From: a virus
Taxonomy: Duplodnaviria > Heunggongvirae > Uroviricota > Caudoviricetes
Virus record (IMG/VR): IMGVR_UViG_3300045988_049160
Direction: 5' to 3' (one strand)
Length of the DNA stretch: 25,860 bases
This document shows positions 939 through 24,325 of this stretch, one piece after another; position 1 is the stretch's first letter; each line of letters opens with the position of its first letter. The notes beneath the pieces were generated by a model, which saw only the letters and a program-made list of their open reading frames with translations, did not search any database and had not been told where the DNA came from. The position numbers and the translations under genes were made by a program.

Positions 939-955
939 ATTACCTTTCGGGTAAT
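939..955. promoter_or_regulatory. Putative operator, inverted repeat ATTACC-TTTCG-GGTAAT (copy 1 of 5)
   Basis: Perfect 6-bp inverted half-sites with a 5-bp spacer, in the divergent intergenic region between the tailspike start (835) and the small antirepressor-like gene (1031). Confidence 0.45.
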
Positions 956-1294: not shown

Positions 1295-1312
1295 AGGCCG
1301 CAAGAGCGGCCT
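1295..1312. terminator. Hairpin AGGCCGC-AAGA-GCGGCCT between convergent genes, likely bidirectional terminator (stronger for the minus strand)
   Basis: 7-bp GC-rich stem; on the minus strand it is followed by TTTAAATTT; overlaps the stop codon of the 1311..2039 gene. Confidence 0.4.
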
Positions 1313-2039
1313 ATCGTTTCGCTTTGTGCTCGTCCCAGCACGTTTTGCACCATGCCATTAAGCCGTCCGCATTTTGATTATTAGGGTAAAAGCTGGTCCG
1401 TTTTCTGCGGACATTACAAATTGGGCACCACTTCATATGGCGTGTATTCTTTGGGCCATCGAGACACCTTGCACACCACTTAGTCAATCCATCTGGATTT
1501 TTTGACGATTTCCGGAATTTGTCATATGGAAGGTTTATTCTGCATCGCAAACACTGCTTGCGGCCACTTGAAACTCTGTTAGCTGATTCTTCTTTTGGCG
1601 GCGATACAGAAGGTATTCTTGCTGGCTCTGATACTGCCTGAGGTGCTTTTTTAGATGACTGAGACGATATGTCATCACCAGGGAATCTTCCATGATATGC
1701 CGGACGCGTTGACACTCCAGGTGGAAGCTCAGCTGTAAACGGCTTTGGCTGAATCAGTTGCCTCTCTTTTGCTAACTCCTGCTGTTTATAATATGTCTGG
1801 ATTACCGCACTATCATAAGCAGGAGGTGCGGAAATATTAGGCGCATTACCTCCAGTTTTTTGAAACTGAGTAGAGGTGTGTTCTATCACCTGTGTACGAT
1901 TAATCGTTATCTCCCCATCTTCGGTCTTTATCGTTTTGTTATGATTAACGACCGTACGATCAGAGATCTTAGTCTTGTTCTGGTTGATAACGTAAATAAT
2001 CACCGCAACCACACCAACAACTATCCAGAAAACTTCCAT
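1311..2039 (-). CDS. Membrane-anchored protein with N-terminal transmembrane helix, Pro-rich linker and two tandem C4 zinc-ribbon repeats; function unknown
   Basis: 242-aa ORF; N-terminus MEVFWIVVGVVAVIIYVI is hydrophobic; C-terminus has two Cys-x2-Cys pairs repeated twice (CLRC...NPDGLTKWCARC and CPIC...NADGLMAWCKTC). GAGGAAAA RBS upstream of the ATG at 2039. Confidence 0.5.
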   Translation of the reverse strand: MEVFWIVVGVVAVIIYVINQNKTKISDRTVVNHNKTIKTEDGEITINRTQVIEHTSTQFQKTGGNAPNISAPPAYDSAVIQTYYKQQELAKERQLIQPKPFTAELPPGVSTRPAYHGRFPGDDISSQSSKKAPQAVSEPARIPSVSPPKEESANRVSSGRKQCLRCRINLPYDKFRKSSKNPDGLTKWCARCLDGPKNTRHMKWCPICNVRRKRTSFYPNNQNADGLMAWCKTCWDEHKAKR

Positions 2040-2169: not shown

Positions 2170-2434
2170 TTACATCGCACTCCTCTTGTGCCATAGTAAT
2201 CGGGCACTGGCAAAATCCAGTGCCGGGATTGGTCTCCCGGATTACTACAGAGGCACATATGCCGCATAAGCGGTTTTTTTATGTGTAAAGCGCACCTATT
2301 CTATGGTGGGCTGTGTGGGGGCACCGAAAGGTGCGCCGGGTTCCTTTGTAGCCGGTAAGACCAACTCTGCACAGTTCACCACCATCTGATTGGTCTCAGC
2401 GGTGGTGATTAACCTAACTACAAAGGTGATCGCT

Positions 2435-3127
2435 ATGAATACCAAACCTTCCATCTTTTCCTTTGAGTCATCCTGCCAGATCCGTATGTTCATGATTGAC
2501 GGAGAACCTTGGTTTGTCACCAAAGATGTGTGCAATGCTTTGAATATTGATGTTACACAAGCGAGAAAACTTGATAAAAAAGGCTGGAACAAAAAGGGGC
2601 TGTATTCAATACAGACCCCTGGTGGAATACAAGAACTATCCATCGTTTCAGAATCAGGTCTCTACATCCTTATTCTGCGTTGCAAAGAGGCAATGACTGA
2701 GGGAACGAGAGCATTCAGATTTCTTGAATGGGTTACAGGTGAGGTTCTTCCTCAGATCCGCCGCACCGGAAGTTACATTAAAAACTCGCTCCCGCAGGAA
2801 GAACGCATAAAGATGGTTGCCGACCAGGTAGCCAACGCCACGGCGTCAGCAGTAATGCAGGCAATGAAGATAGAGAACAAAACCTACAGTGCCCCGCTGA
2901 AGCCCGGCTACCGCAGCCTGATTCATTCGCCGTCTGGTGTTCTCGGCCTGACGGAGAACTCACTGCTGATGAATCTGCTGAACCAGTTACAGGACGACGG
3001 GCACGACGTATCGGGCGCGGCGGCGGAGCTGACCACCATGTTCTGCTACATCGTCGGTGTGAGCAAATGCCTGCGTGATATCCAGACCCACGCGGAGTAT
3101 ATCAACGACAAAGCAGGGTTCTTCTGA
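2435..3127 (+). CDS. Phage antirepressor-like protein with Bro-N N-terminal domain
   Basis: ATG at 2435 with AGGTGA RBS; N-terminal region FESSCQIRMFMIDGEPWFVTKDVCNALNI...GGIQELSIVSESGLYILILRCKEA matches the remembered Bro-N/antirepressor pattern; C-terminal domain duplicated in the 1031..1288 protein. Confidence 0.6.
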   Translation: MNTKPSIFSFESSCQIRMFMIDGEPWFVTKDVCNALNIDVTQARKLDKKGWNKKGLYSIQTPGGIQELSIVSESGLYILILRCKEAMTEGTRAFRFLEWVTGEVLPQIRRTGSYIKNSLPQEERIKMVADQVANATASAVMQAMKIENKTYSAPLKPGYRSLIHSPSGVLGLTENSLLMNLLNQLQDDGHDVSGAAAELTTMFCYIVGVSKCLRDIQTHAEYINDKAGFF

Positions 3128-3211
3128 CGAGCGGCGGCACATGGATGTGCCTACAATTATCAATAATTGTTTACACTCGTTGCAGTTAAAAGCATTATAC
3201 TCATGTTTAAA

Positions 3212-3228
3212 ATTACCCGATTGGTAAA
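3212..3228. promoter_or_regulatory. Putative operator ATTACC-CGATT-GGTAAA (copy 4)
   Basis: Lies between a TTTACA -35-like hexamer (3170-3175) and the RBS/ATG of the 3249 gene. Confidence 0.4.
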
Positions 3229-3248
3229 GTCGATTGGTTGAGGTTCAT

Positions 3249-3575
3249 ATGAGCAGAAGATATGTCAAGGAGCTGGCTATAGAGTCTGGCACCCCTTTGG
3301 GTATCGTTCCTGGCTCCAACTATGCCAAGGCTTTAAACCGAGACTCTGTCGTCAAAGTTATATCAAGAGACATGAATATGGTCGGAGACGATCTCAGACG
3401 GTCAGAAAATCGTGTTTATGCTGAATATATAGTAAAGAACGGAAAAAAAATTGCAGCGCCTGCTGGCGGAAAATGGGCAATAGTGACAGGGAAAAACTCA
3501 AATGCAAGAGGAAAACCAGAAGCTAAAGGAATGTCCTTCGACAAATATGCAAAAATCTATTGGGCAACCAAGTGA
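3249..3575 (+). CDS. Hypothetical protein (108 aa), first gene of a small operator-controlled operon
   Basis: ATG at 3249 with GAGG RBS 5 nt upstream (the track start at 3234 is a TTG). No recognisable motif. Confidence 0.45.
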   Translation: MSRRYVKELAIESGTPLGIVPGSNYAKALNRDSVVKVISRDMNMVGDDLRRSENRVYAEYIVKNGKKIAAPAGGKWAIVTGKNSNARGKPEAKGMSFDKYAKIYWATK

Positions 3576-4050
3576 TAACGAAGAAACTGAGTTCGAGGAA
3601 GTTGAGGAAGGGCTAAGTAACGAGATCATTCAACACCCAGATGCCTTCACAAGAGTTCTTGATCGCCCTGAAATTCAGGAGATAGTTGTCGCTCACCATG
3701 CGTTTCAGGGTCCGCTTCCTCCCCCCTATCTGCTTCGCGGGTATCAGGATATTTTACCTGATGCCCCCGAACGCATCTTCCAGCTGACGGAGAAGGAGTT
3801 TGCTCACCGCCAGAAAATGGAGGAAAAGGCACTTGACGGGGCTATTAATAGAGATAAACGTGGGCAGTGGTTTGGCCTGAGTGCAACTATTTTTACAGTA
3901 GCTTGTGCAACATTATTAGGTTTAACAGGTCATGAAGTTCTAGCTGGCACAGTGATCGGTACAGTTGTTGCAGTGGCTGGTATTTTCGTTCTTAGACAAA
4001 AACCAAGCATCAAGAAGAAATCTGAAGACAACAAACCTGAAGAAAAGTAA
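3502..4050 (+). CDS. Membrane protein, DUF2335-like (two C-terminal transmembrane helices); start uncertain (3502 or 3547)
   Basis: ORF overlaps the preceding gene in another frame; motif GPLPPPYLLRGYQDILPDAPERIF...EKEFAHRQKMEEKALDGAINRDKRGQWFGL followed by hydrophobic segments fits remembered DUF2335 phage membrane proteins. Confidence 0.45.
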   Translation: MQEENQKLKECPSTNMQKSIGQPSDNEETEFEEVEEGLSNEIIQHPDAFTRVLDRPEIQEIVVAHHAFQGPLPPPYLLRGYQDILPDAPERIFQLTEKEFAHRQKMEEKALDGAINRDKRGQWFGLSATIFTVACATLLGLTGHEVLAGTVIGTVVAVAGIFVLRQKPSIKKKSEDNKPEEK

Positions 4051-4071
4051 GCCCGCGCTGCGGGCTTTTTT
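4049..4071 (+). terminator. Rho-independent terminator (GCCCGC-GCT-GCGGGC followed by TTTTTT)
   Basis: GC-rich stem immediately after the stop codon at 4048-4050, followed by a T6 run. Confidence 0.6.
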
Positions 4072-4143
4072 GTGGACGAAACAAAAGTCAGTGCTACACT
4101 CATTGACGCCACATTGAGGTGGCTTATAGATGGAAATGTCACA

Positions 4144-4305
4144 ATGAAAAAAGCATTTGCTGCACTGTTCGTTTTGTTGTCTCTGGTAGCTTCAACTCAG
4201 GCCTTTGCCGGTCGTTGTCAGCACGACAGCGATACTGCCGCTGACGGCTCCCGCTGCGGTGGGCGTTCTGCGGATTCCCGCCCGGGCGGCGGTGGCATTC
4301 GTTAA
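4144..4305 (+). CDS. Small secreted peptide (53-aa precursor; predicted signal peptide MKKAFAALFVLLSLVASTQAFA; about 31-aa mature peptide with two Cys and Gly/Arg-rich tail)
   Basis: Internal ATG at 4144 of the 4072..4305 ORF; promoter-like TTGACG-17-ATAGAT upstream; own terminator downstream. Confidence 0.4.
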   Translation: MKKAFAALFVLLSLVASTQAFAGRCQHDSDTAADGSRCGGRSADSRPGGGGIR

Positions 4306-4327
4306 AAACAAGGCCGCGAAAGCGGCC
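4306..4327 (-). terminator. Rho-independent terminator ending the minus-strand late operon (hairpin GGCCGC-GAAA-GCGGCC, T-run on minus strand)
   Basis: Perfect 6-bp stem with GAAA loop at 4312-4327; the minus strand then reads TTGTTTTTAAC. Confidence 0.6.
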
Positions 4328-4328
4328 T

Positions 4329-4340
4329 GTGACATGTCAC
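4329..4340. repeat. 12-bp perfect palindrome GTGACATGTCAC (copy 1 of 4), overlapping the lipoprotein stop codon and adjacent to the terminator
   Basis: Exact sequence; identical copies at 21728-21739, 22120-22131 and 24386-24397. Confidence 0.8.
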
Positions 4341-4717
4341 GCAACGCAATTATTACCGCGCCATGTAACATTTTTAATAATCTTATCAGCACCAAACTCA
4401 ACGTAAACAGAGCAACTGAAATGGAGTGTATAACCGCCATCAGTTGTTGCGTATGTGTTTGAATATATAGTATTACCAATTAGATTAGACGTAGTATTAT
4501 ACGTTGTGGTTTGTGGTACGTTATAACTACCAGAGCTTGAGTAAACATACACTCTGTTTCCATCTGGAGATGTAAGCTCTCCCTGAGGATACCCCCACTG
4601 CTGAACCATTGCGTCTATACTCTGCCCGCGCCACGTAAGCATATTTCTTTCAAACTGTGCAGCTGACTGGCATCCAACGAGAAGCATAAATCCAAAAATC
4701 AAAAATACTTTTCTCAT
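4337..4717 (-). CDS. Lipoprotein (lipobox LLVGC), Thr/Ser/Tyr-rich mature domain; function unknown (candidate exclusion or lysis-associated lipoprotein)
   Basis: Internal ATG at 4717 gives MRKVFLIFGFMLLVGCQSA..., a classic signal peptide plus lipobox Cys; last gene before the operon terminator. Confidence 0.55.
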   Translation of the reverse strand: MRKVFLIFGFMLLVGCQSAAQFERNMLTWRGQSIDAMVQQWGYPQGELTSPDGNRVYVYSSSGSYNVPQTTTYNTTSNLIGNTIYSNTYATTDGGYTLHFSCSVYVEFGADKIIKNVTWRGNNCVA

Positions 4718-4802
4718 AATTACCCCTATCATGGAAAAACAGCACCAATCCACAAATTAACTAGTTATTTTATTATTCTTCCGAACAATACAATTCCGAA
4801 TA

Positions 4803-4925
4803 CTACAAAGCCGAACCATGCCGCTGCACGCAACAGAGATTCCAATTGAAACCCATTTTTATCAAAATGTATGAATAGCATAAAAACGCTGCACATATTA
4901 GTACAATAAAAGTTATTTGAACCAT
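4803..4925 (-). CDS. Small hydrophobic peptide (about 40 aa, one predicted transmembrane helix); alternative to the 62-aa ORF called in another frame
   Basis: ATG at 4925 (and 4928) is preceded by AAAAGGAG; translation MVQITFIVLICAAFLCYSYILIKMGFNWNLCCVQRHGSAL. The track ORF 4765..4953 has no RBS for any of its Met codons. Confidence 0.3.
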   Translation of the reverse strand: MVQITFIVLICAAFLCYSYILIKMGFNWNLCCVQRHGSAL

Positions 4926-4936
4926 CATATCTCCTT

Positions 4937-7411
4937 TTATTGCGGAGTGACATCCTGTGGTCGCCACCAGTATGTCTGGTTAAACTCTTTCTTCGAACGT
5001 TGCTCCATTTTACGCAAATAGCCTGGTGAAAAATACTCCTGCATCTGGTTAAAGATCATGTGATCGAGAGCCGCCTTCAAGTACCAGAGATTCGCACCAG
5101 GCATCAAACCTTTCCCCAGCTTCACCAGATCACCACCAGTCTGCTCACTCTTCCCTTCCACAGCATTTAACGGTATGCCCTGAGCAATCTTCACTACGTC
5201 ATCAACCAGACCAGCTACCGGGCCAAGCATCGACGCCAGCGCGCCGCTTCCGTACCTAGTGTGATCTGACAATAAAAAGTCACCGTAAAGGCCAAGACCA
5301 CCACCTTTCAGTAGAGCACCAAGCCAGAATTTTGCGGCATCTTCTCCTGTCATCTCTCGAGGATTACGACCAGACGCAAGGTCGTTAAGTTGCTGCGACA
5401 AAGCGCCAAGAATGGTCGTACTGGCAATAAACGTCGCAATATATGCCGCACGCCCACCAGCAGACGGCATACCCATAGCGCGTGACCAGTGACGCATAAC
5501 AACCGAGATAGGGAACGATTTAAACAGGAAAACACTTCTCGTTAATTCACCTTTCCATGTTCCACGCTGAATACCAGAACCGGTTATCAGTTGCTCACGT
5601 GCTCCCGGTGTAATAACAGCCATATCAACTTCTTCAGTTACGGCACCGAGCAGTTTACGCATTGCCTCAAATTTCACGCGTTCAGGCTCACCAAGATGTT
5701 TAACTGCTGAATCAGGGATACGCATAATGCTTTCCGGTGTCAGCATCGTATTATTACCGTTCCCCCAGTCCTCCTGTTTCGCCAGCTTCCATACGCTCCA
5801 GTCTGTGTCAGTAATCCCTTTGCTTTTCAGGATACGAAAATCAGAGTCATCGAGGCTACGAAGGTCTGGTGTCCGTGACACTACTTCTCCCAGGCTTCCC
5901 ATCATGGTTACGCCATAGGCGCGCTTGTGCGCATCTGACCATGCTGTAAGCCCACTGGCACGCATTACCGCCGTTGCCGCCCAACGAGACACTGACGGCC
6001 CCATATTATCCATCGCCCAGCGGTTAACGCTGCCAAGTAGAGATTCCATCGCCAGACCAGCGCGGCGCGCCCGCGCAAGTTCTGTACGGTTCGTTGGGTC
6101 CATAGCTTCAAGCTGGTTGCGGAATAACTGGTTCATTGGAAGGTTGGTAACCTTCGCAGACAGATACATGGTTCCAAGATCAGAGAACGATGACAGCAAC
6201 GCGGATCCGAGTCTGCTGGCAACCAGCCAGTTGCGGATATTGTCAGACCATCGCGCGATGTGCGGATTCGCTACAGGCTGTGTCTTTCCGGAAATAAAGT
6301 TGTACAGATTCTCTGTGTTGTTCGCCAGCCGCTCGACTTTACCGGTTTTACTCGGGTTAGCTGTTGCCGTTTCTGCCTTCACCTGATCAAGAAGAGAGCG
6401 GAAAACATGATCGGGGTTTGGGCCATATGTTTCCACCAGTGCAATATCTTTACTGATACCTTCCAGGTGACCGACCATGATTTCCCATAGAGAGCGATCG
6501 CCATAAAGTTGCTGATATTGCAGATAGGAATCTGCATCTTTGAAATGTATCTGTCGTGATGCATTACCACGGTTAGCACGTGCGCCGGAAATTCGCATTC
6601 CGGTATCAGTAAGCTTATTCAGCCCACCAGTAGCGATCGTGTTATAAGCCTCTCCAAGAAATGAAGACAACTCGGCATCGTTCATCAGTTGTCCATCGGC
6701 TCGGATATAATATTTGCGATCCAGCTTACCTATAACATCGCTAACCCACTTATCCTTTGATACTGCCCCAACCTTTTCCATAGAATGATGTTGAGGGATC
6801 CCCCAGTTTTCGAGATAGCCAATGTCCCCACCAGCATCATTAAACCGGCGGCGCAGCAGCTCTGTAACTTCTCTCCACGCCTTAGCACCGTTTCTTGCTT
6901 TAGCATTGCCAGTATTTTGCCCCCGCATTTCATATACCAGGTCACGTACGCCCGCTTCATCTTCAAACAGACCAAAAAAGCGAGGATCAACTGCTTCGAA
7001 TGCCTCCTGCAATTGACTCAATGCATAATCACGGGTGGCTTTTGTTCTGGATTCAACAGAGAGGAAATTAGATTTACCGTCTGCATTAAAAGCTATAGTA
7101 CGGTTAAGAGCGCCAAGTTTCCCATCAGCCCCTTGATAGCTATTGATAAATTTATCCAATCTCTGACGCGCGGCTATAGTGAGAGCCACACGACGTTTCT
7201 TTAATGCCGCTTCTCGCTGTAATTCTTCAGATGCCAATTGTGCTGCTCGATATAGCCGCTCTGATTCGGAAAGTTGTCGCCACGACATAGGGTCATCACG
7301 AGCAATGGAGCGCATATTTCGATAAATGCGGTCTTCAATGTTCTGTATTTCTCGCGCCGTTAACATGCGCTGCGCCGCCTGCTGAACCGCTTGTATACAT
7401 TCCTGTCTCAT
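4937..7411 (-). CDS. Internal virion / DNA-ejection protein, C-terminal region resembling T7 gp16 (internal virion protein D)
   Basis: 824-aa ORF, translationally coupled to the upstream gene; C-terminal segment VFLFKSFPISVVMRHW...ALSQQLNDL...GPVAGLVDDV resembles the remembered T7 gp16 C-terminus (VMQFKSFTIKSLNSKF...). Confidence 0.5.
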   Translation of the reverse strand: MRQECIQAVQQAAQRMLTAREIQNIEDRIYRNMRSIARDDPMSWRQLSESERLYRAAQLASEELQREAALKKRRVALTIAARQRLDKFINSYQGADGKLGALNRTIAFNADGKSNFLSVESRTKATRDYALSQLQEAFEAVDPRFFGLFEDEAGVRDLVYEMRGQNTGNAKARNGAKAWREVTELLRRRFNDAGGDIGYLENWGIPQHHSMEKVGAVSKDKWVSDVIGKLDRKYYIRADGQLMNDAELSSFLGEAYNTIATGGLNKLTDTGMRISGARANRGNASRQIHFKDADSYLQYQQLYGDRSLWEIMVGHLEGISKDIALVETYGPNPDHVFRSLLDQVKAETATANPSKTGKVERLANNTENLYNFISGKTQPVANPHIARWSDNIRNWLVASRLGSALLSSFSDLGTMYLSAKVTNLPMNQLFRNQLEAMDPTNRTELARARRAGLAMESLLGSVNRWAMDNMGPSVSRWAATAVMRASGLTAWSDAHKRAYGVTMMGSLGEVVSRTPDLRSLDDSDFRILKSKGITDTDWSVWKLAKQEDWGNGNNTMLTPESIMRIPDSAVKHLGEPERVKFEAMRKLLGAVTEEVDMAVITPGAREQLITGSGIQRGTWKGELTRSVFLFKSFPISVVMRHWSRAMGMPSAGGRAAYIATFIASTTILGALSQQLNDLASGRNPREMTGEDAAKFWLGALLKGGGLGLYGDFLLSDHTRYGSGALASMLGPVAGLVDDVVKIAQGIPLNAVEGKSEQTGGDLVKLGKGLMPGANLWYLKAALDHMIFNQMQEYFSPGYLRKMEQRSKKEFNQTYWWRPQDVTPQ

Positions 7412-20687: not shown

Positions 20688-20704
20688 ATTACCTTTCAGG
20701 TAAC
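20688..20704. promoter_or_regulatory. Putative operator ATTACC-TTTCA-GGTAAC (copy 5)
   Basis: About 90 bp upstream of the gp6.7-like start, in the region where the structural operon must restart after the plus-strand moron insertion. Confidence 0.35.
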
Positions 20705-21025: not shown

Positions 21026-21102
21026 GTGGCATTAGCTCAGCTGGACAGAGCAACCGCTTTCTAAGCGGTTGGTCGCAGGTTCGAATCCTGCATGCCACGC
21101 CA
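21026..21102 (+). tRNA. tRNA-Arg (anticodon UCU)
   Basis: 77 nt with CCA; acceptor stem GTGGCAT/ATGCCAC, D-arm GCTC/GAGC, anticodon stem CCGC/GCGG with loop TTTCTAA, T-arm GCAGG-TTCGAAT-CCTGC. Related to but not identical with remembered E. coli argU. Confidence 0.85.
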
Positions 21103-23682: not shown

Positions 23683-24275
23683 TGATTGCCATCCTGACGT
23701 TCTTTCAGTCTCTTCCTGGCTGCCGCTATGCGATCAGCAATTGTCACATTCACATTAACATCCAGGCGTTCTTTGAATGCGTTGACGTCGACGTGCTTAC
23801 CAATCAGTTCGAGGTTCTTCACCTTGTCAGGCCATTTAATTTTTTTGAGGATTGTCTCTATCGAATCCTCGTTCATGTTCATGATGGTCGATGACAGATC
23901 AAAGCCACTAAGCGTAGTGCGCCAGATTTTCGGCCACTCGCGGATTGGCTTAAGGCTCCCATCGTCGTTGAGGATGTCGATCACGTCCATCTGGTCGATC
24001 TCCACCAGGCGCATGAGAACGTAATCAGCACTGACGCGCATTCGTTTGTTGCGCTCTTCCATCAGCTCGGCAATCCGTTTTTGAATGCGTTCATCGCGCA
24101 TCATGAGACTGGCTTTAACTGCCGCTGTATTTGGGGAGAATCCTGCGTTAATCGCTGCCTGAGTCTGGTTTTCAGGCGTTTTGATGTATGACTGGCAATA
24201 AGCCTCCTGCATTGCTGTTAGTGGCTTAAATTGCGTTGATTTGCGTTTATAGGTTTTAGGTTCAGCAGGCATCAT
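23679..24275 (-). CDS. Terminase small subunit (putative); start at 24275 or 24272 rather than 24353
   Basis: Directly upstream of and coupled to terL; helix-turn-helix-like segment TQAAINAGFSPNTAAVKASLMMRDERIQKRIAEL typical of small terminases. The track start would place a terminator hairpin and low-complexity repeats inside the coding sequence. Confidence 0.55.
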   Translation of the reverse strand: MMPAEPKTYKRKSTQFKPLTAMQEAYCQSYIKTPENQTQAAINAGFSPNTAAVKASLMMRDERIQKRIAELMEERNKRMRVSADYVLMRLVEIDQMDVIDILNDDGSLKPIREWPKIWRTTLSGFDLSSTIMNMNEDSIETILKKIKWPDKVKNLELIGKHVDVNAFKERLDVNVNVTIADRIAAARKRLKERQDGNQ

Positions 24276-24325
24276 AACCACCGTGGTAATAGTTACCGTT
24301 GTGGTAATAGTACCATGCAAAATAA

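What the first reader, a model, noticed from the sequence alone, without database searches (positions are those of the whole stretch)
3249..4050. Operator-controlled two-gene cargo operon with out-of-frame overlap (unknown 108-aa protein plus DUF2335-like membrane protein)
The two ORFs overlap by 29-74 nt in different frames, depending on the true start of the second, and are expressed from an operator-gated promoter (operator 3212-3228). A soluble-plus-membrane protein pair in phage cargo is a common layout for exclusion or abortive-infection modules.
Basis: inference. Interest (0 to 1): 0.45.

Follow-up and report, generated by a model that had tools for sequence, protein, structure and literature searches.

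The report
Conserved small-protein plus DUF2335 phage cargo pair
The two overlapping genes are real, swappable cargo of a phiV10-like E. coli prophage and belong to a widespread, previously unrecognised obligate pair (a small soluble protein plus a DUF2335 membrane protein) whose function is unknown but whose layout looks like a toxin-antitoxin or phage-exclusion module.

Summary
Observation confirmed. Gene 1 (3249-3575, 108 aa) and a DUF2335 gene (3502-4050, 182 aa) overlap out of frame. The overlap is most likely 74 nt: the ATG and Shine-Dalgarno at 3502 are conserved in all enterobacterial copies, the ATG at 3547 is not.

The block 3153-4048 is a swap cassette. Sister phage TL-2011b carries a YafO toxin-antitoxin pair in the same slot.

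The palindrome at 3212-3228 is real and conserved. It is one copy of a phage-wide operator, ATTACC-N5-GGTAAT: 6 exact copies in the window and 14 in phiV10, including both flanks of the repressor gene. It is not cassette-specific.

New result: gene 1 is the enterobacterial form of an unannotated small-protein family of about 3,000 clusters at 50% identity, with no Pfam match. A member sits directly upstream of the DUF2335 gene in at least 63 of 79 distant loci from many phyla, often overlapping it. There is no other conserved neighbour. The two partners are co-inherited (Mantel r 0.64), and one natural fusion exists.

Function is untested. No match to PADLOC, NCBIfam or solved structures, and both AlphaFold models are low-confidence. 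Best guess (about 0.35): a small regulator plus a two-helix membrane effector, acting like a toxin-antitoxin, abortive-infection or exclusion module.

The parts
3153..4048 (+). Swappable cargo cassette: promoter, operator and two genes
   Evidence: In the alignment with TL-2011b and EC.W1-9, identity to TL-2011b ends at about 3152 and resumes at the terminator at about 4049. TL-2011b has a 59-aa gene plus a YafO toxin gene in this slot.
3170..3198 (+). Promoter candidate P1: TTTACA, 17-nt spacer, CATTAT
   Evidence: Consensus scan, 9 of 12 matches. Conserved in the Cronobacter, Enterobacter and Leclercia copies.
3186..3213 (+). Promoter candidate P2: TTAAAA, 16-nt spacer, TAAAAT, with the -10 hexamer abutting the operator
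   Evidence: Consensus scan. The same geometry, with the -10 ending on the first T of TTACC, is seen at the Bro-N promoter site 2153 and at the phiV10 early-left and p45 sites. Conserved as TTCAAA-16-TGAAAT in relatives.
3212..3228 (.). 17-bp palindromic operator ATTACCCGATTGGTAAA, one copy of the phage-wide ATTACC-N5-GGTAAT site
   Evidence: 7 sites in the window at up to 1 mismatch (6 exact), against 0.41 expected. 14 sites in phiV10, including both flanks of the HTH repressor gene. Present upstream of all enterobacterial cassette copies and of the TL-2011b YafO cassette.
3218..3238 (+). Direct repeat CGATTGGT, two copies spaced 13 nt
   Evidence: Not conserved in relatives. Probably chance or lineage-specific.
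3249..3575 (+). Gene 1: 108-aa soluble basic protein. The conserved core is about residues 1-64. Residues 65-108 are an enterobacterial-specific C-terminal extension.
   Evidence: phrog_10654, full length, E 9.5e-66. No Pfam or NCBIfam match. Iterated HMM links it to small ORFs upstream of DUF2335 genes in distant phyla. The family has 3,004 cluster representatives. Net charge +11 and no hydrophobic segment.
3443..3450 (+). A8 homopolymer inside gene 1, polymorphic
   Evidence: E. coli ST648 has A7 as its only difference over 898 nt, and PGAP then drops gene 1. The database variants P0004-P0006 diverge from the window protein from this point on. The run is not conserved outside the close lineage.
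3488..3504 (+). Shine-Dalgarno-like AGGGA plus ATG 3502: the likely true start of the DUF2335 gene, inside gene 1
   Evidence: An ATG with a purine-rich Shine-Dalgarno sequence is conserved at this position in all enterobacterial copies (strong GGAAGG in Enterobacter and Leclercia). The Met at 3547 is absent from most homologues. PGAP uses 3502.
3502..4050 (+). DUF2335 gene: 182-aa protein with an acidic helical cytoplasmic N-domain and a C-terminal two-helix membrane hairpin
   Evidence: PF10097 at 57.2 bits. phrog_3996 'membrane protein, moron'. AlphaFold2 model is all-helical, pLDDT 60. Hydropathy peaks centre at residues 132 and 155.
3718..3867 (+). DUF2335 core domain, residues 73-122
   Evidence: Pfam match. 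Invariant residues G70 P71 L72 P73 P75 Y81 H102 R120 G121 Q122 G125 in alignment A2.
3868..3996 (+). Transmembrane hairpin, about residues 123-165, rich in Gly, Ala and Thr
4049..4071 (+). Intrinsic terminator (8-bp stem, T run), shared with the phage backbone
   Evidence: Identical flank in TL-2011b, where only the loop differs.

Best explanation
SHOWN. Window 3153-4071 is a self-contained accessory cassette in the variable slot downstream of the Bro-N antirepressor gene of a phiV10-like (Uetakevirus) temperate phage or prophage. It has a sigma-70-type promoter whose -10/+1 region is covered by one copy of the phage-wide 17-bp palindrome. It then carries gene 1 (108 aa, soluble, basic) and, starting 74 nt before the gene 1 stop in the +1 frame, a DUF2335 membrane protein, followed by an intrinsic terminator. 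The two genes are the enterobacterial version of an obligate pair found across many bacterial phyla and in phages of very different hosts. The pair is a 60-110-aa protein of an unannotated family, followed on the same strand by a DUF2335 protein, usually touching or overlapping it. The pair has no other conserved neighbour, and the partners are co-inherited.

INFERRED (mechanism). The two products form a complex at the inner face of the cytoplasmic membrane. The DUF2335 protein is the effector. It is anchored by a hairpin of two helices rich in small residues, which could oligomerise and perturb the membrane or a membrane machine. The small protein binds the conserved cytoplasmic domain of DUF2335 (GPLPPP...HR...RGQ) and holds it in check or senses a trigger. 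Starting DUF2335 translation inside gene 1 couples the two, so the small partner is never made in deficit. The module would therefore behave like a toxin-antitoxin, abortive-infection or exclusion pair.

In this phage, transcription is tied to the general repressor operator. It would be off in a quiet lysogen and on together with the early genes at induction, at infection, or when the repressor is inactivated.
For: Cassette and cargo status.

Both genes are real and conserved as an overlapping pair in enterobacteria, with gene 1 at 48-55% identity and DUF2335 at about 80%.

Pair conserved in distant taxa:
- The first-iteration HMM, built only from the enterobacterial proteins, put 15 of its 17 weak hits on the ORF directly upstream of the DUF2335 gene. 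Chance probability is about 1e-24 with about 108 ORFs per locus.
- After iteration, at least 63 of 79 distant loci are positive, all in that position. More were recovered with the final profile.
- The pair is also present in Leptospira, Klebsiella sipho-, Arthrobacter and Streptococcus phages.

Family size: 3,004 clusters at E <= 1e-3, and no Pfam family for any member.

No conserved third gene.

Co-inheritance: Mantel r = 0.64, reached by 0 of 1,000 permutations.

Natural fusion protein P0292, with the small domain at 1-60 and DUF2335 at 137-185.

Toxin-antitoxin-like hallmarks:
- Small upstream gene, overlapping starts, and a faster-evolving upstream partner.
- The same slot is filled by a YafO toxin-antitoxin pair in TL-2011b.
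- HicAB lies next to the pair in three unrelated contexts.
- A toxin gene lies nearby in Leptospira phage LE1.

Membrane hairpin and charge complementarity (gene 1 net +11, DUF2335 N-domain net -11).

Operator regulon. Published over-expression of the identical repressor in phage ZX5 shuts down lytic transcripts (PMC9782041).
Against: - No experiment or homology ties either protein to toxicity, defence or exclusion. Pfam, NCBIfam, PADLOC, PDB sequence search and PDB and BFVD fold searches gave nothing beyond DUF2335 itself.
- The immediate neighbours in 68 distant genomes are mostly ordinary genes, and only 2 of 131 hit defence models. There is no defence-island enrichment.
- The small partner has no recognisable DNA-binding fold, unlike classical type II antitoxins.
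- Both AlphaFold2 models are low-confidence (pLDDT 60 and 56), and no complex could be modelled.
- A complete E. coli genome carries gene 1 frameshifted after residue 66 with DUF2335 intact. That argues against strict antitoxin dependence, unless the conserved core (residues 1-64) is sufficient or the difference is a sequencing error.
- If the operator really keeps the operon off in lysogens, protection of the lysogen is hard to explain.
Confidence: 0.4

Rival explanations
1. Superinfection-exclusion protein at the membrane. The DUF2335 hairpin protein blocks DNA entry or another membrane step of incoming phages, in the way P22 SieA, T4 Imm or HK97 gp15 do. The small protein is an assembly or stability partner. 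No toxicity is involved.
For: The protein is a membrane protein encoded in accessory slots of temperate phages from many hosts. In Klebsiella phage RAH1 the pair sits among tail genes like a moron.
Against: Many copies lie in chromosomes with no phage genes nearby. The operator suggests repression in the lysogen. No similarity to SieA, SieB or Imm families in Pfam. Known exclusion proteins are usually single genes.
Confidence: 0.2
2. A non-conflict membrane function carried as neutral or mildly useful cargo, for example a membrane-anchored adaptor or stress-response pair with a cytoplasmic partner, or a modulator of the phage's own lysis or induction timing.
For: Neighbours in most distant genomes are housekeeping genes, with no defence enrichment. 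The operon shares the operator of early and lytic promoters. The protein is a hairpin membrane protein, as holins and antiholins are.
Against: Patchy distribution: 72 of 5,426 complete E. coli genomes, always in prophage. The pair is swapped as a cassette against a toxin-antitoxin module. It recurs next to HicAB. The lysis cassette with its own holins lies elsewhere in these phages. A 120-aa cytoplasmic N-domain is unlike known holins.
Confidence: 0.25
3. Gene 1 is not a gene. It would be a chance ORF over the 5' leader of a single DUF2335 gene, or the two ORFs would be joined by programmed frameshifting.
For: Gene callers skipped it in most public assemblies. An A8 run lies within it. One database protein, P0004, reads as a fusion of the two.
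Against: The ORF, its Shine-Dalgarno sequence and its ATG are conserved at 48-55% protein identity across genera, with a conserved C-terminal motif FDKYAKLYWATK. It has full-length PHROG support. It has distant homologues in the same position in dozens of phyla-spanning loci. The A-run is not conserved. The DUF2335 frame is +1 relative to gene 1, not the -1 typical of programmed frameshifts.
Confidence: 0.03

Closest known systems
Pfam PF10097 (DUF2335, 'predicted membrane protein') / PHROG 3996
   Same: The second protein is a bona fide member: 57.2 bits against a cut-off of 25, with the invariant GPLPPP...Y...H...RGQ motif and a C-terminal two-helix anchor.
   Different: The family has no described function. 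The only papers that mention 'DUF2335' call it a phospholipase or Tle1-like T6SS effector domain; from my own knowledge I believe they mean DUF2235, which I could not check here. The obligate upstream partner described here is not part of the family description.
Type II toxin-antitoxin cassettes in prophage accessory slots, e.g. the YafO-family pair of phage TL-2011b
   Same: It occupies exactly the same slot between the same flanks, behind the same phage operator. It is a two-gene operon with a small first gene and overlapping reading frames, and it ends at the same terminator.
   Different: No sequence similarity to YafO or any toxin family. The presumed effector is a membrane protein, not a ribosome-dependent RNase. 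The small partner has no recognisable DNA-binding domain.
CptB (SdhE/YgfY) and CptA (YgfX), the E. coli type IV toxin-antitoxin pair (from general knowledge)
   Same: A small soluble protein encoded upstream of a roughly 135-190-aa inner-membrane protein with two transmembrane helices. The membrane protein is the toxic partner.
   Different: No Pfam hit to the CptA family. CptA has its helices at the N-terminus, whereas here they are at the C-terminus after a 120-aa conserved domain.
Lambda RexA/RexB and mycobacteriophage Sbash gp30/gp31, two-component abortive-infection systems (from general knowledge)
   Different: No homology. RexB-type effectors have four helices. Those systems are expressed in the lysogen, whereas this cassette sits behind the general repressor operator.
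Rz/Rz1 spanins, the classic out-of-frame overlapping phage gene pair
   Same: Two phage genes overlapping in the +1 frame, one of them encoding a membrane protein.
   Different: These phages already carry a separate Rz/Rz1 pair in the lysis cassette. There is no lipoprotein signal, only a terminal overlap rather than an embedded gene, and the pair also occurs outside phages.

Membership tests
DUF2335 (PF10097) | Match to the Pfam model above its gathering score | tested here: met
   57.2 bits against 25, residues 73-122 covering profile positions 1-50 of 50.
DUF2335 (PF10097) | Predicted membrane anchor following the domain | tested here: met
   Two hydrophobic helices at about residues 123-165, conserved across alignment A2.
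Small partner of DUF2335 (unnamed family defined here) | Sequence motif G..(L/F)D(L/F)...about 20 aa...D..A(L)..DW..VG.D(L)..A, and a position directly upstream of a DUF2335 gene on the same strand | tested here: met
   The iterated HMM seeded with gene 1 homologues recovers these ORFs, and only these, from 8,554 six-frame ORFs. Alignments A4 and A5. In gene 1 the motif reads ...SGTPLGI...SRDMNMVGDDLRRS.
Type II toxin-antitoxin system | Two small adjacent or overlapping genes in one operon, patchy and mobile | tested here: met
   74-nt overlap, own promoter and terminator, cassette swap, present in 72 of 5,426 E. coli genomes.
Type II toxin-antitoxin system | Homology of either partner to a known toxin or antitoxin family | tested here: not met
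   No Pfam, NCBIfam or PADLOC hit apart from DUF2335.
Type II toxin-antitoxin system | Antitoxin with a DNA-binding domain that autoregulates through its own operator | tested here: inconclusive
   No HTH or RHH domain detected. The only conserved operator is the phage-wide one.
Type II toxin-antitoxin system | Growth inhibition by one partner, neutralised by the other | not testable with these tools
   Needs cloning and induction experiments.
Known anti-phage defence systems (PADLOC-DB v2) | Match of a component to a defence-system model | tested here: not met
   Only a spurious methyltransferase hit at E 0.039.
Known anti-phage defence systems | Enrichment next to other defence genes (defence islands) | tested here: not met
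   2 of 131 immediate neighbours hit PADLOC models. Toxin-antitoxin genes are adjacent in several prophage contexts only.
Holin / antiholin | Small membrane protein encoded in the lysis cassette next to the endolysin | tested here: not met
   The lysis cassette (holins, endolysin, spanins) is elsewhere in phiV10-like phages. No holin family hit. The 120-aa cytoplasmic domain is atypical for holins.
Rz/Rz1 spanins | Embedded or overlapping lipoprotein gene in the lysis cassette | tested here: not met
   A separate Rz/Rz1 pair is annotated in phiV10. Neither product has a signal peptide or lipobox (sequence).

The most novel reading that the evidence does not exclude
The small-protein/DUF2335 pair is a new, widespread family of two-component membrane-acting conflict modules (toxin-antitoxin or abortive-infection type). 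Its first component has escaped annotation because it is short, fast-evolving and overlapped by its partner. In Uetakevirus phages the pair is plugged into the prophage repressor regulon, so it would fire when repression is lost.
Probability: 0.3. Interest if true: 0.7.

Novelty: new variant of a known kind. Interest (0 to 1): 0.5.

Why it matters
DUF2335 is a domain of unknown function spread across Proteobacteria, Firmicutes, Bacteroidota, Actinobacteria, Chloroflexi, Acidobacteria, Cyanobacteria and their phages. Showing that it nearly always comes with a specific, unannotated small partner turns two 'hypothetical proteins' into a defined two-gene module with a testable hypothesis: regulator plus membrane effector. 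The partner family has about 3,000 clusters, is often missed by gene callers, and often overlaps the DUF2335 gene.

The E. coli phage copy is an easy experimental entry point. It is a cassette of under 900 bp with a clean promoter and terminator, and natural sister phages carry either a different cassette or none.

The side observation is also useful. A single 17-bp operator sits at almost every transcription unit of phiV10-like phages, in front of cargo genes and the terminase gene as well. This suggests a simple all-promoter repression scheme that would help in engineering these O157-typing and reporter phages.

Tried and rejected
- Homology and function searches that found nothing useful: NCBIfam and PADLOC on both proteins; Pfam on gene 1 and on 42 plus 10 partner-family members; PDB sequence profiles, where the only hits were a PTS EIIC helix at E 1.3 and a Dps protein at E 0.009, both judged spurious; Foldseek against PDB (no hit below E 5) and against BFVD (only DUF2335 homologues). 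The afdb50 library was unavailable.\n- AlphaFold2 monomers were low-confidence (pLDDT 60.5 and 56.5), so I drew no fold-based inference beyond helices and the hairpin.\n- Literature: papers mentioning 'DUF2335' call it a phospholipase or Tle1-like T6SS effector domain. I rejected this as irrelevant to this protein; I believe they confuse it with DUF2235, but that is from memory and untested. Searches for PF10097, COG5346 and epsilon15/phiV10 operator gave nothing relevant. The ZX5 paper tested the neighbouring antirepressor and the repressor, not these genes.\n- Programmed frameshifting at the A8 run, or a gene 1-DUF2335 fusion: rejected. The run is not conserved and the frame relation is +1.\n- An HTH reading of 'KELAIESGTPLGI': rejected after alignment with distant partners showed a different conserved motif.\n- A cassette-specific autoregulatory operator: rejected in favour of the phage-wide operator.\n- A 5'-UTR RNA hairpin as the role of the palindrome: folding is not better than shuffles (z = -1.2), and there is no Rfam hit in the cassette.\n- A conserved third gene, or an obligatory link to Bro-N: rejected.
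Full report
**What the window is.** The window is the structural and accessory half of a phiV10-like (genus Uetakevirus, epsilon15-like) temperate podophage or prophage of E. coli. It is 97-98% identical over about 80% of its length to phiV10, phiv142-3 and the O157 typing phages 9 and 10. Across 3100-4150 it is 99.5-99.7% identical to phages EC.W1-9 and vB_EcoP_ZX5. A 100% identical copy of the cassette is present in many E. coli chromosomes: 72 of 5,426 complete genomes carry it, always on the chromosome.

**The observation.**
- Gene 1 (ATG 3249 to stop 3575, 108 aa) has a GAGGT Shine-Dalgarno sequence 5 nt upstream of its start.
- The DUF2335 ORF begins at ATG 3502 (182 aa) or ATG 3547 (167 aa) and ends at 4050. 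It is in the +1 frame relative to gene 1, giving an overlap of 74 or 29 nt.
- Pfam confirms DUF2335 at 57.2 bits against a cut-off of 25. PHROGs gives phrog_3996 ('membrane protein', moron category) for the second protein and phrog_10654 (unknown function, full-length match) for gene 1.
- PGAP annotates both genes with the 74-nt overlap.
- The 3502 start is the better supported. All enterobacterial homologues keep an ATG there, preceded by a purine-rich Shine-Dalgarno sequence (a strong GGAAGG in Enterobacter and Leclercia). The Met at the 3547 position is replaced by Thr in most of them.
- The N-terminal 25-30 residues of the DUF2335 protein, which lie in the overlap, are poorly conserved and predicted disordered. 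The gene 1 C-terminus in the same DNA is conserved (FDKYAKLYWATK). Selection in the overlap therefore acts mainly on the gene 1 frame.

**Cargo status.**
- In the alignment with TL-2011b, identity stops at about 3152, just after a hairpin that follows the Bro-N antirepressor gene. It resumes at the terminator stem at about 4049.
- In that slot TL-2011b carries a 59-aa gene plus a YafO-family toxin gene. phiV10 has only a 29-aa ORF there.
- Klebsiella Uetakevirus BUCT711 has the DUF2335 pair but no Bro-N gene.
- The block 3153-4048 is therefore an exchangeable cassette that brings its own promoter region.

**Promoter and operator.**
- Two overlapping sigma-70-like candidates exist: TTTACA-17-CATTAT at 3170-3198 and TTAAAA-16-TAAAAT at 3186-3213. 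Both are conserved in the Cronobacter, Enterobacter and Leclercia copies.
- It is not specific to the cassette. The window has six exact copies at 940, 2060, 2153, 3213, 20689 and 24293, plus 24275 with one mismatch. That is 7 sites at up to one mismatch, against 0.41 expected.
- phiV10 has 14 copies at up to one mismatch. They lie in front of terS, the portal operon, Bro-N, the tail-fibre/p24 divergent region, the oac/lysis region and int. Two lie on each side of the HTH repressor gene p40. Others follow terminators ahead of p42 and p45. EC.W1-9 has 17 copies.
- At several sites the -10 hexamer ends on the first T of TTACC, exactly as P2 does here. Examples are the Bro-N site at 2153 and the phiV10 early-left and p45 sites.
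- The simplest reading is that this is the operator of the prophage repressor (and possibly of its Cro-like antagonist) and that the cassette belongs to that regulon. This is an inference.
- The only experimental support available is that over-expressing the identical repressor in ZX5 reduces endolysin and holin transcripts by more than 99.9% (PMC9782041).
- As an RNA hairpin the element is unremarkable (z = -1.2).

**The new finding: gene 1 has a large family.**
- A database search with gene 1 found only 7 clusters, against 33 for the DUF2335 protein. This looked like an orphan, but tblastn showed a gene 1 homologue (48-55% identity) directly upstream of, and overlapping, every DUF2335 homologue (about 80% identity) fetched from Klebsiella, Cronobacter and Enterobacter. 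Gene callers had usually skipped it.
- A scan of one genome per species with the DUF2335 alignment returned 80 loci from many phyla.
- An HMM built only from five enterobacterial gene 1 proteins gave weak hits in these loci. Of 17 such hits, 15 fell on the ORF immediately upstream of the DUF2335 gene on the same strand. Chance probability is about 1e-24 at about 108 ORFs per locus.
- Iterating the profile recovered such an ORF in at least 63 of the 79 distant loci and nowhere else. The final profile added several more, along with the partners in Leptospira phage LE1, Klebsiella siphophage RAH1 (an unannotated ORF) and Arthrobacter phage Gusanita. Streptococcus Javan prophages have an overlapping 68-aa upstream gene that is too diverged to score.
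- The shared core is about 60 residues: G..(L/F)D(L/F), about 20 residues, then D..A(L)..DW..VG.D(L)..A. The enterobacterial proteins add a C-terminal extension of about 45 residues.
- None of 42 plus 10 members matches any Pfam family.
- An exhaustive HMMER search of 1.84 billion cluster representatives finds 3,004 members at E <= 1e-3 and 988 at E <= 1e-10, nearly all 65-120 aa long.

**Properties of the pair.**
- Overlap or abutment of the two genes is common in distant lineages too: 40-56 nt in Lachnospiraceae prophages and 4-29 nt elsewhere.
- There is no recurrent third gene. 286 neighbouring ORFs form no cross-locus cluster, and 131 immediate neighbours fall into 113 Pfam families.
- The pairwise-identity matrices of the two partners are correlated (Mantel r = 0.64; 0 of 1,000 permutations reach it), so the pair is inherited as a unit.
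- One database protein (P0292, 223 aa) is a fusion of the small domain and DUF2335.
- Contexts include the integrase-to-lysis accessory region of Firmicutes prophages next to HicAB, a chromosomal spot next to HicAB, a position between two integrases in an Arthrobacter phage, and a position near a toxin gene in Leptospira phage LE1.
- Many copies also lie among ordinary genes, and only 2 of 131 neighbours hit defence models.

**What the proteins look like.**
- Gene 1 is soluble and basic (net +11), with no hydrophobic segment.
- The DUF2335 protein has an acidic N-terminal region (net -11). It has the invariant motif GPLPPP..L..Y, then H102/R103 and R120-G-Q, running as one long predicted helix (residues 88-142) into the first membrane helix. 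A tight turn and a second helix (145-165) rich in Gly, Ala and Thr follow, and then a short charged tail.
- Both AlphaFold2 models are of low confidence (pLDDT 60.5 and 56.5). This is compatible with proteins that fold only in a complex or in the membrane.
- No solved or predicted viral structure with a known function resembles them.

**Interpretation.**
- Firmly established: a mobile, self-contained two-gene module, which is the enterobacterial phage member of a very broad small-partner/DUF2335 pair. In this phage it is inserted in an accessory slot and placed behind the general phage operator.
- Not established: its function.
- The layout fits a toxin-antitoxin or abortive-infection logic with the membrane protein as effector. 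The relevant features are a small, faster-evolving upstream partner, translational coupling, patchy distribution, replacement by a YafO toxin-antitoxin pair in a sister phage, company of HicAB, and a hairpin membrane protein.
- I give that about 0.35-0.4. A non-toxic exclusion role gets about 0.2, and a non-conflict membrane or lysis-timing role about 0.25.
- The operator argues that the module is expressed with early genes rather than constitutively in the lysogen, which any functional model has to accommodate.

**Novelty.** The genes are annotated in databases only as 'hypothetical protein' and 'DUF2335 domain-containing protein'. No paper in the searchable library deals with them. The partner family and the obligate pairing appear not to have been described. 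If the module is a conflict system, it is a new variant of a known kind, not a new principle.

Noticed in passing
window 940-954, 2060-2074, 2153-2167, 3213-3227, 20689-20703, 24275-24289, 24293-24307; L093 (phiV10), 14 sites: A 17-bp palindrome, ATTACC-N5-GGTAAT, sits at almost every transcription unit of phiV10-like phages. This includes terS, the portal operon, Bro-N, int, the cargo cassettes, and both flanks of the HTH repressor gene. It often overlaps a -10 hexamer or lies just after a terminator. It looks like a genome-wide repressor operator. I could not check whether the original epsilon15 and phiV10 genome papers describe it.
   Followed up: partly
window 2204-2280 and 2299-2386 (+): Rfam matches to the isrK Hfq-binding RNA (74.7 bits) and the C4 antisense RNA (78.6 bits), directly upstream of the Bro-N antirepressor gene (2390-3127). 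This suggests a P1/P7 immI-like antisense control of the antirepressor, downstream of two copies of the palindrome.
   Followed up: no
window 3443-3450: An A8 run inside gene 1 is polymorphic. The complete genome of E. coli ST648 (NZ_CP008697) has A7 as its only difference in the cassette, which truncates gene 1 after its conserved core. Several short-read assemblies also differ here. This is either real phase-like variation or homopolymer sequencing error.
   Followed up: partly
window 3136-3151: A hairpin GGCACAT/ATGTGCC lies just after the Bro-N stop codon, with no T run. The Cronobacter copy has GGCGCAT/ATGCGCC, a compensatory double change. This suggests a conserved RNA structure at the 3' end of the antirepressor message.
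   Followed up: no
L002 (TL-2011b) 4053-4960; L104 1424-2363: The slot downstream of Bro-N is a hot spot for two-gene cassettes. TL-2011b carries a 59-aa gene plus a YafO-family toxin gene there, behind the same palindrome. The E. coli FDAARGOS_497 prophage has a YafO pair on the other side of Bro-N as well as the DUF2335 pair.
   Followed up: partly
L003, L005-L012, L108, L111: Gene 1 homologues are systematically missing from the gene calls and annotations of public assemblies and phage records, leaving gaps of 380-480 nt upstream of the DUF2335 gene. That is why the protein looked like an orphan in the database search.
   Followed up: yes
window 4143-4305 (+): A small secreted or membrane-anchored protein gene (53 aa, signal-peptide-like N-terminus, phrog_14503) follows the terminator. 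It accompanies the slot in TL-2011b, BUCT711 and an unrelated E. coli prophage edge (L105). It is a separate transcription unit of unknown function.
   Followed up: no
window 1311-2039 (-): A 242-aa ORF with an N-terminal hydrophobic helix and a Cys-rich C-terminus gives a weak Stc1 zinc-ribbon hit (E 3.5e-4, below the family cut-off). It diverges from the Bro-N promoter region and differs from the corresponding region of EC.W1-9. It may be another variable cargo gene.
   Followed up: no
window 21026-21099 (+): A tRNA gene (Rfam, 71 bits) lies between the terminase and portal regions, on the strand opposite to the structural genes. The related O157 typing phage records list a tRNA-Arg under the region matched by the window; I did not check that it is the same gene.
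   Followed up: no
P0292 (metagenomic protein, 223 aa): A single natural fusion of the small-partner domain (residues 1-60) with a DUF2335 domain (137-185) and a membrane helix. It is either a Rosetta-stone hint of physical interaction or an assembly artefact.
   Followed up: partly
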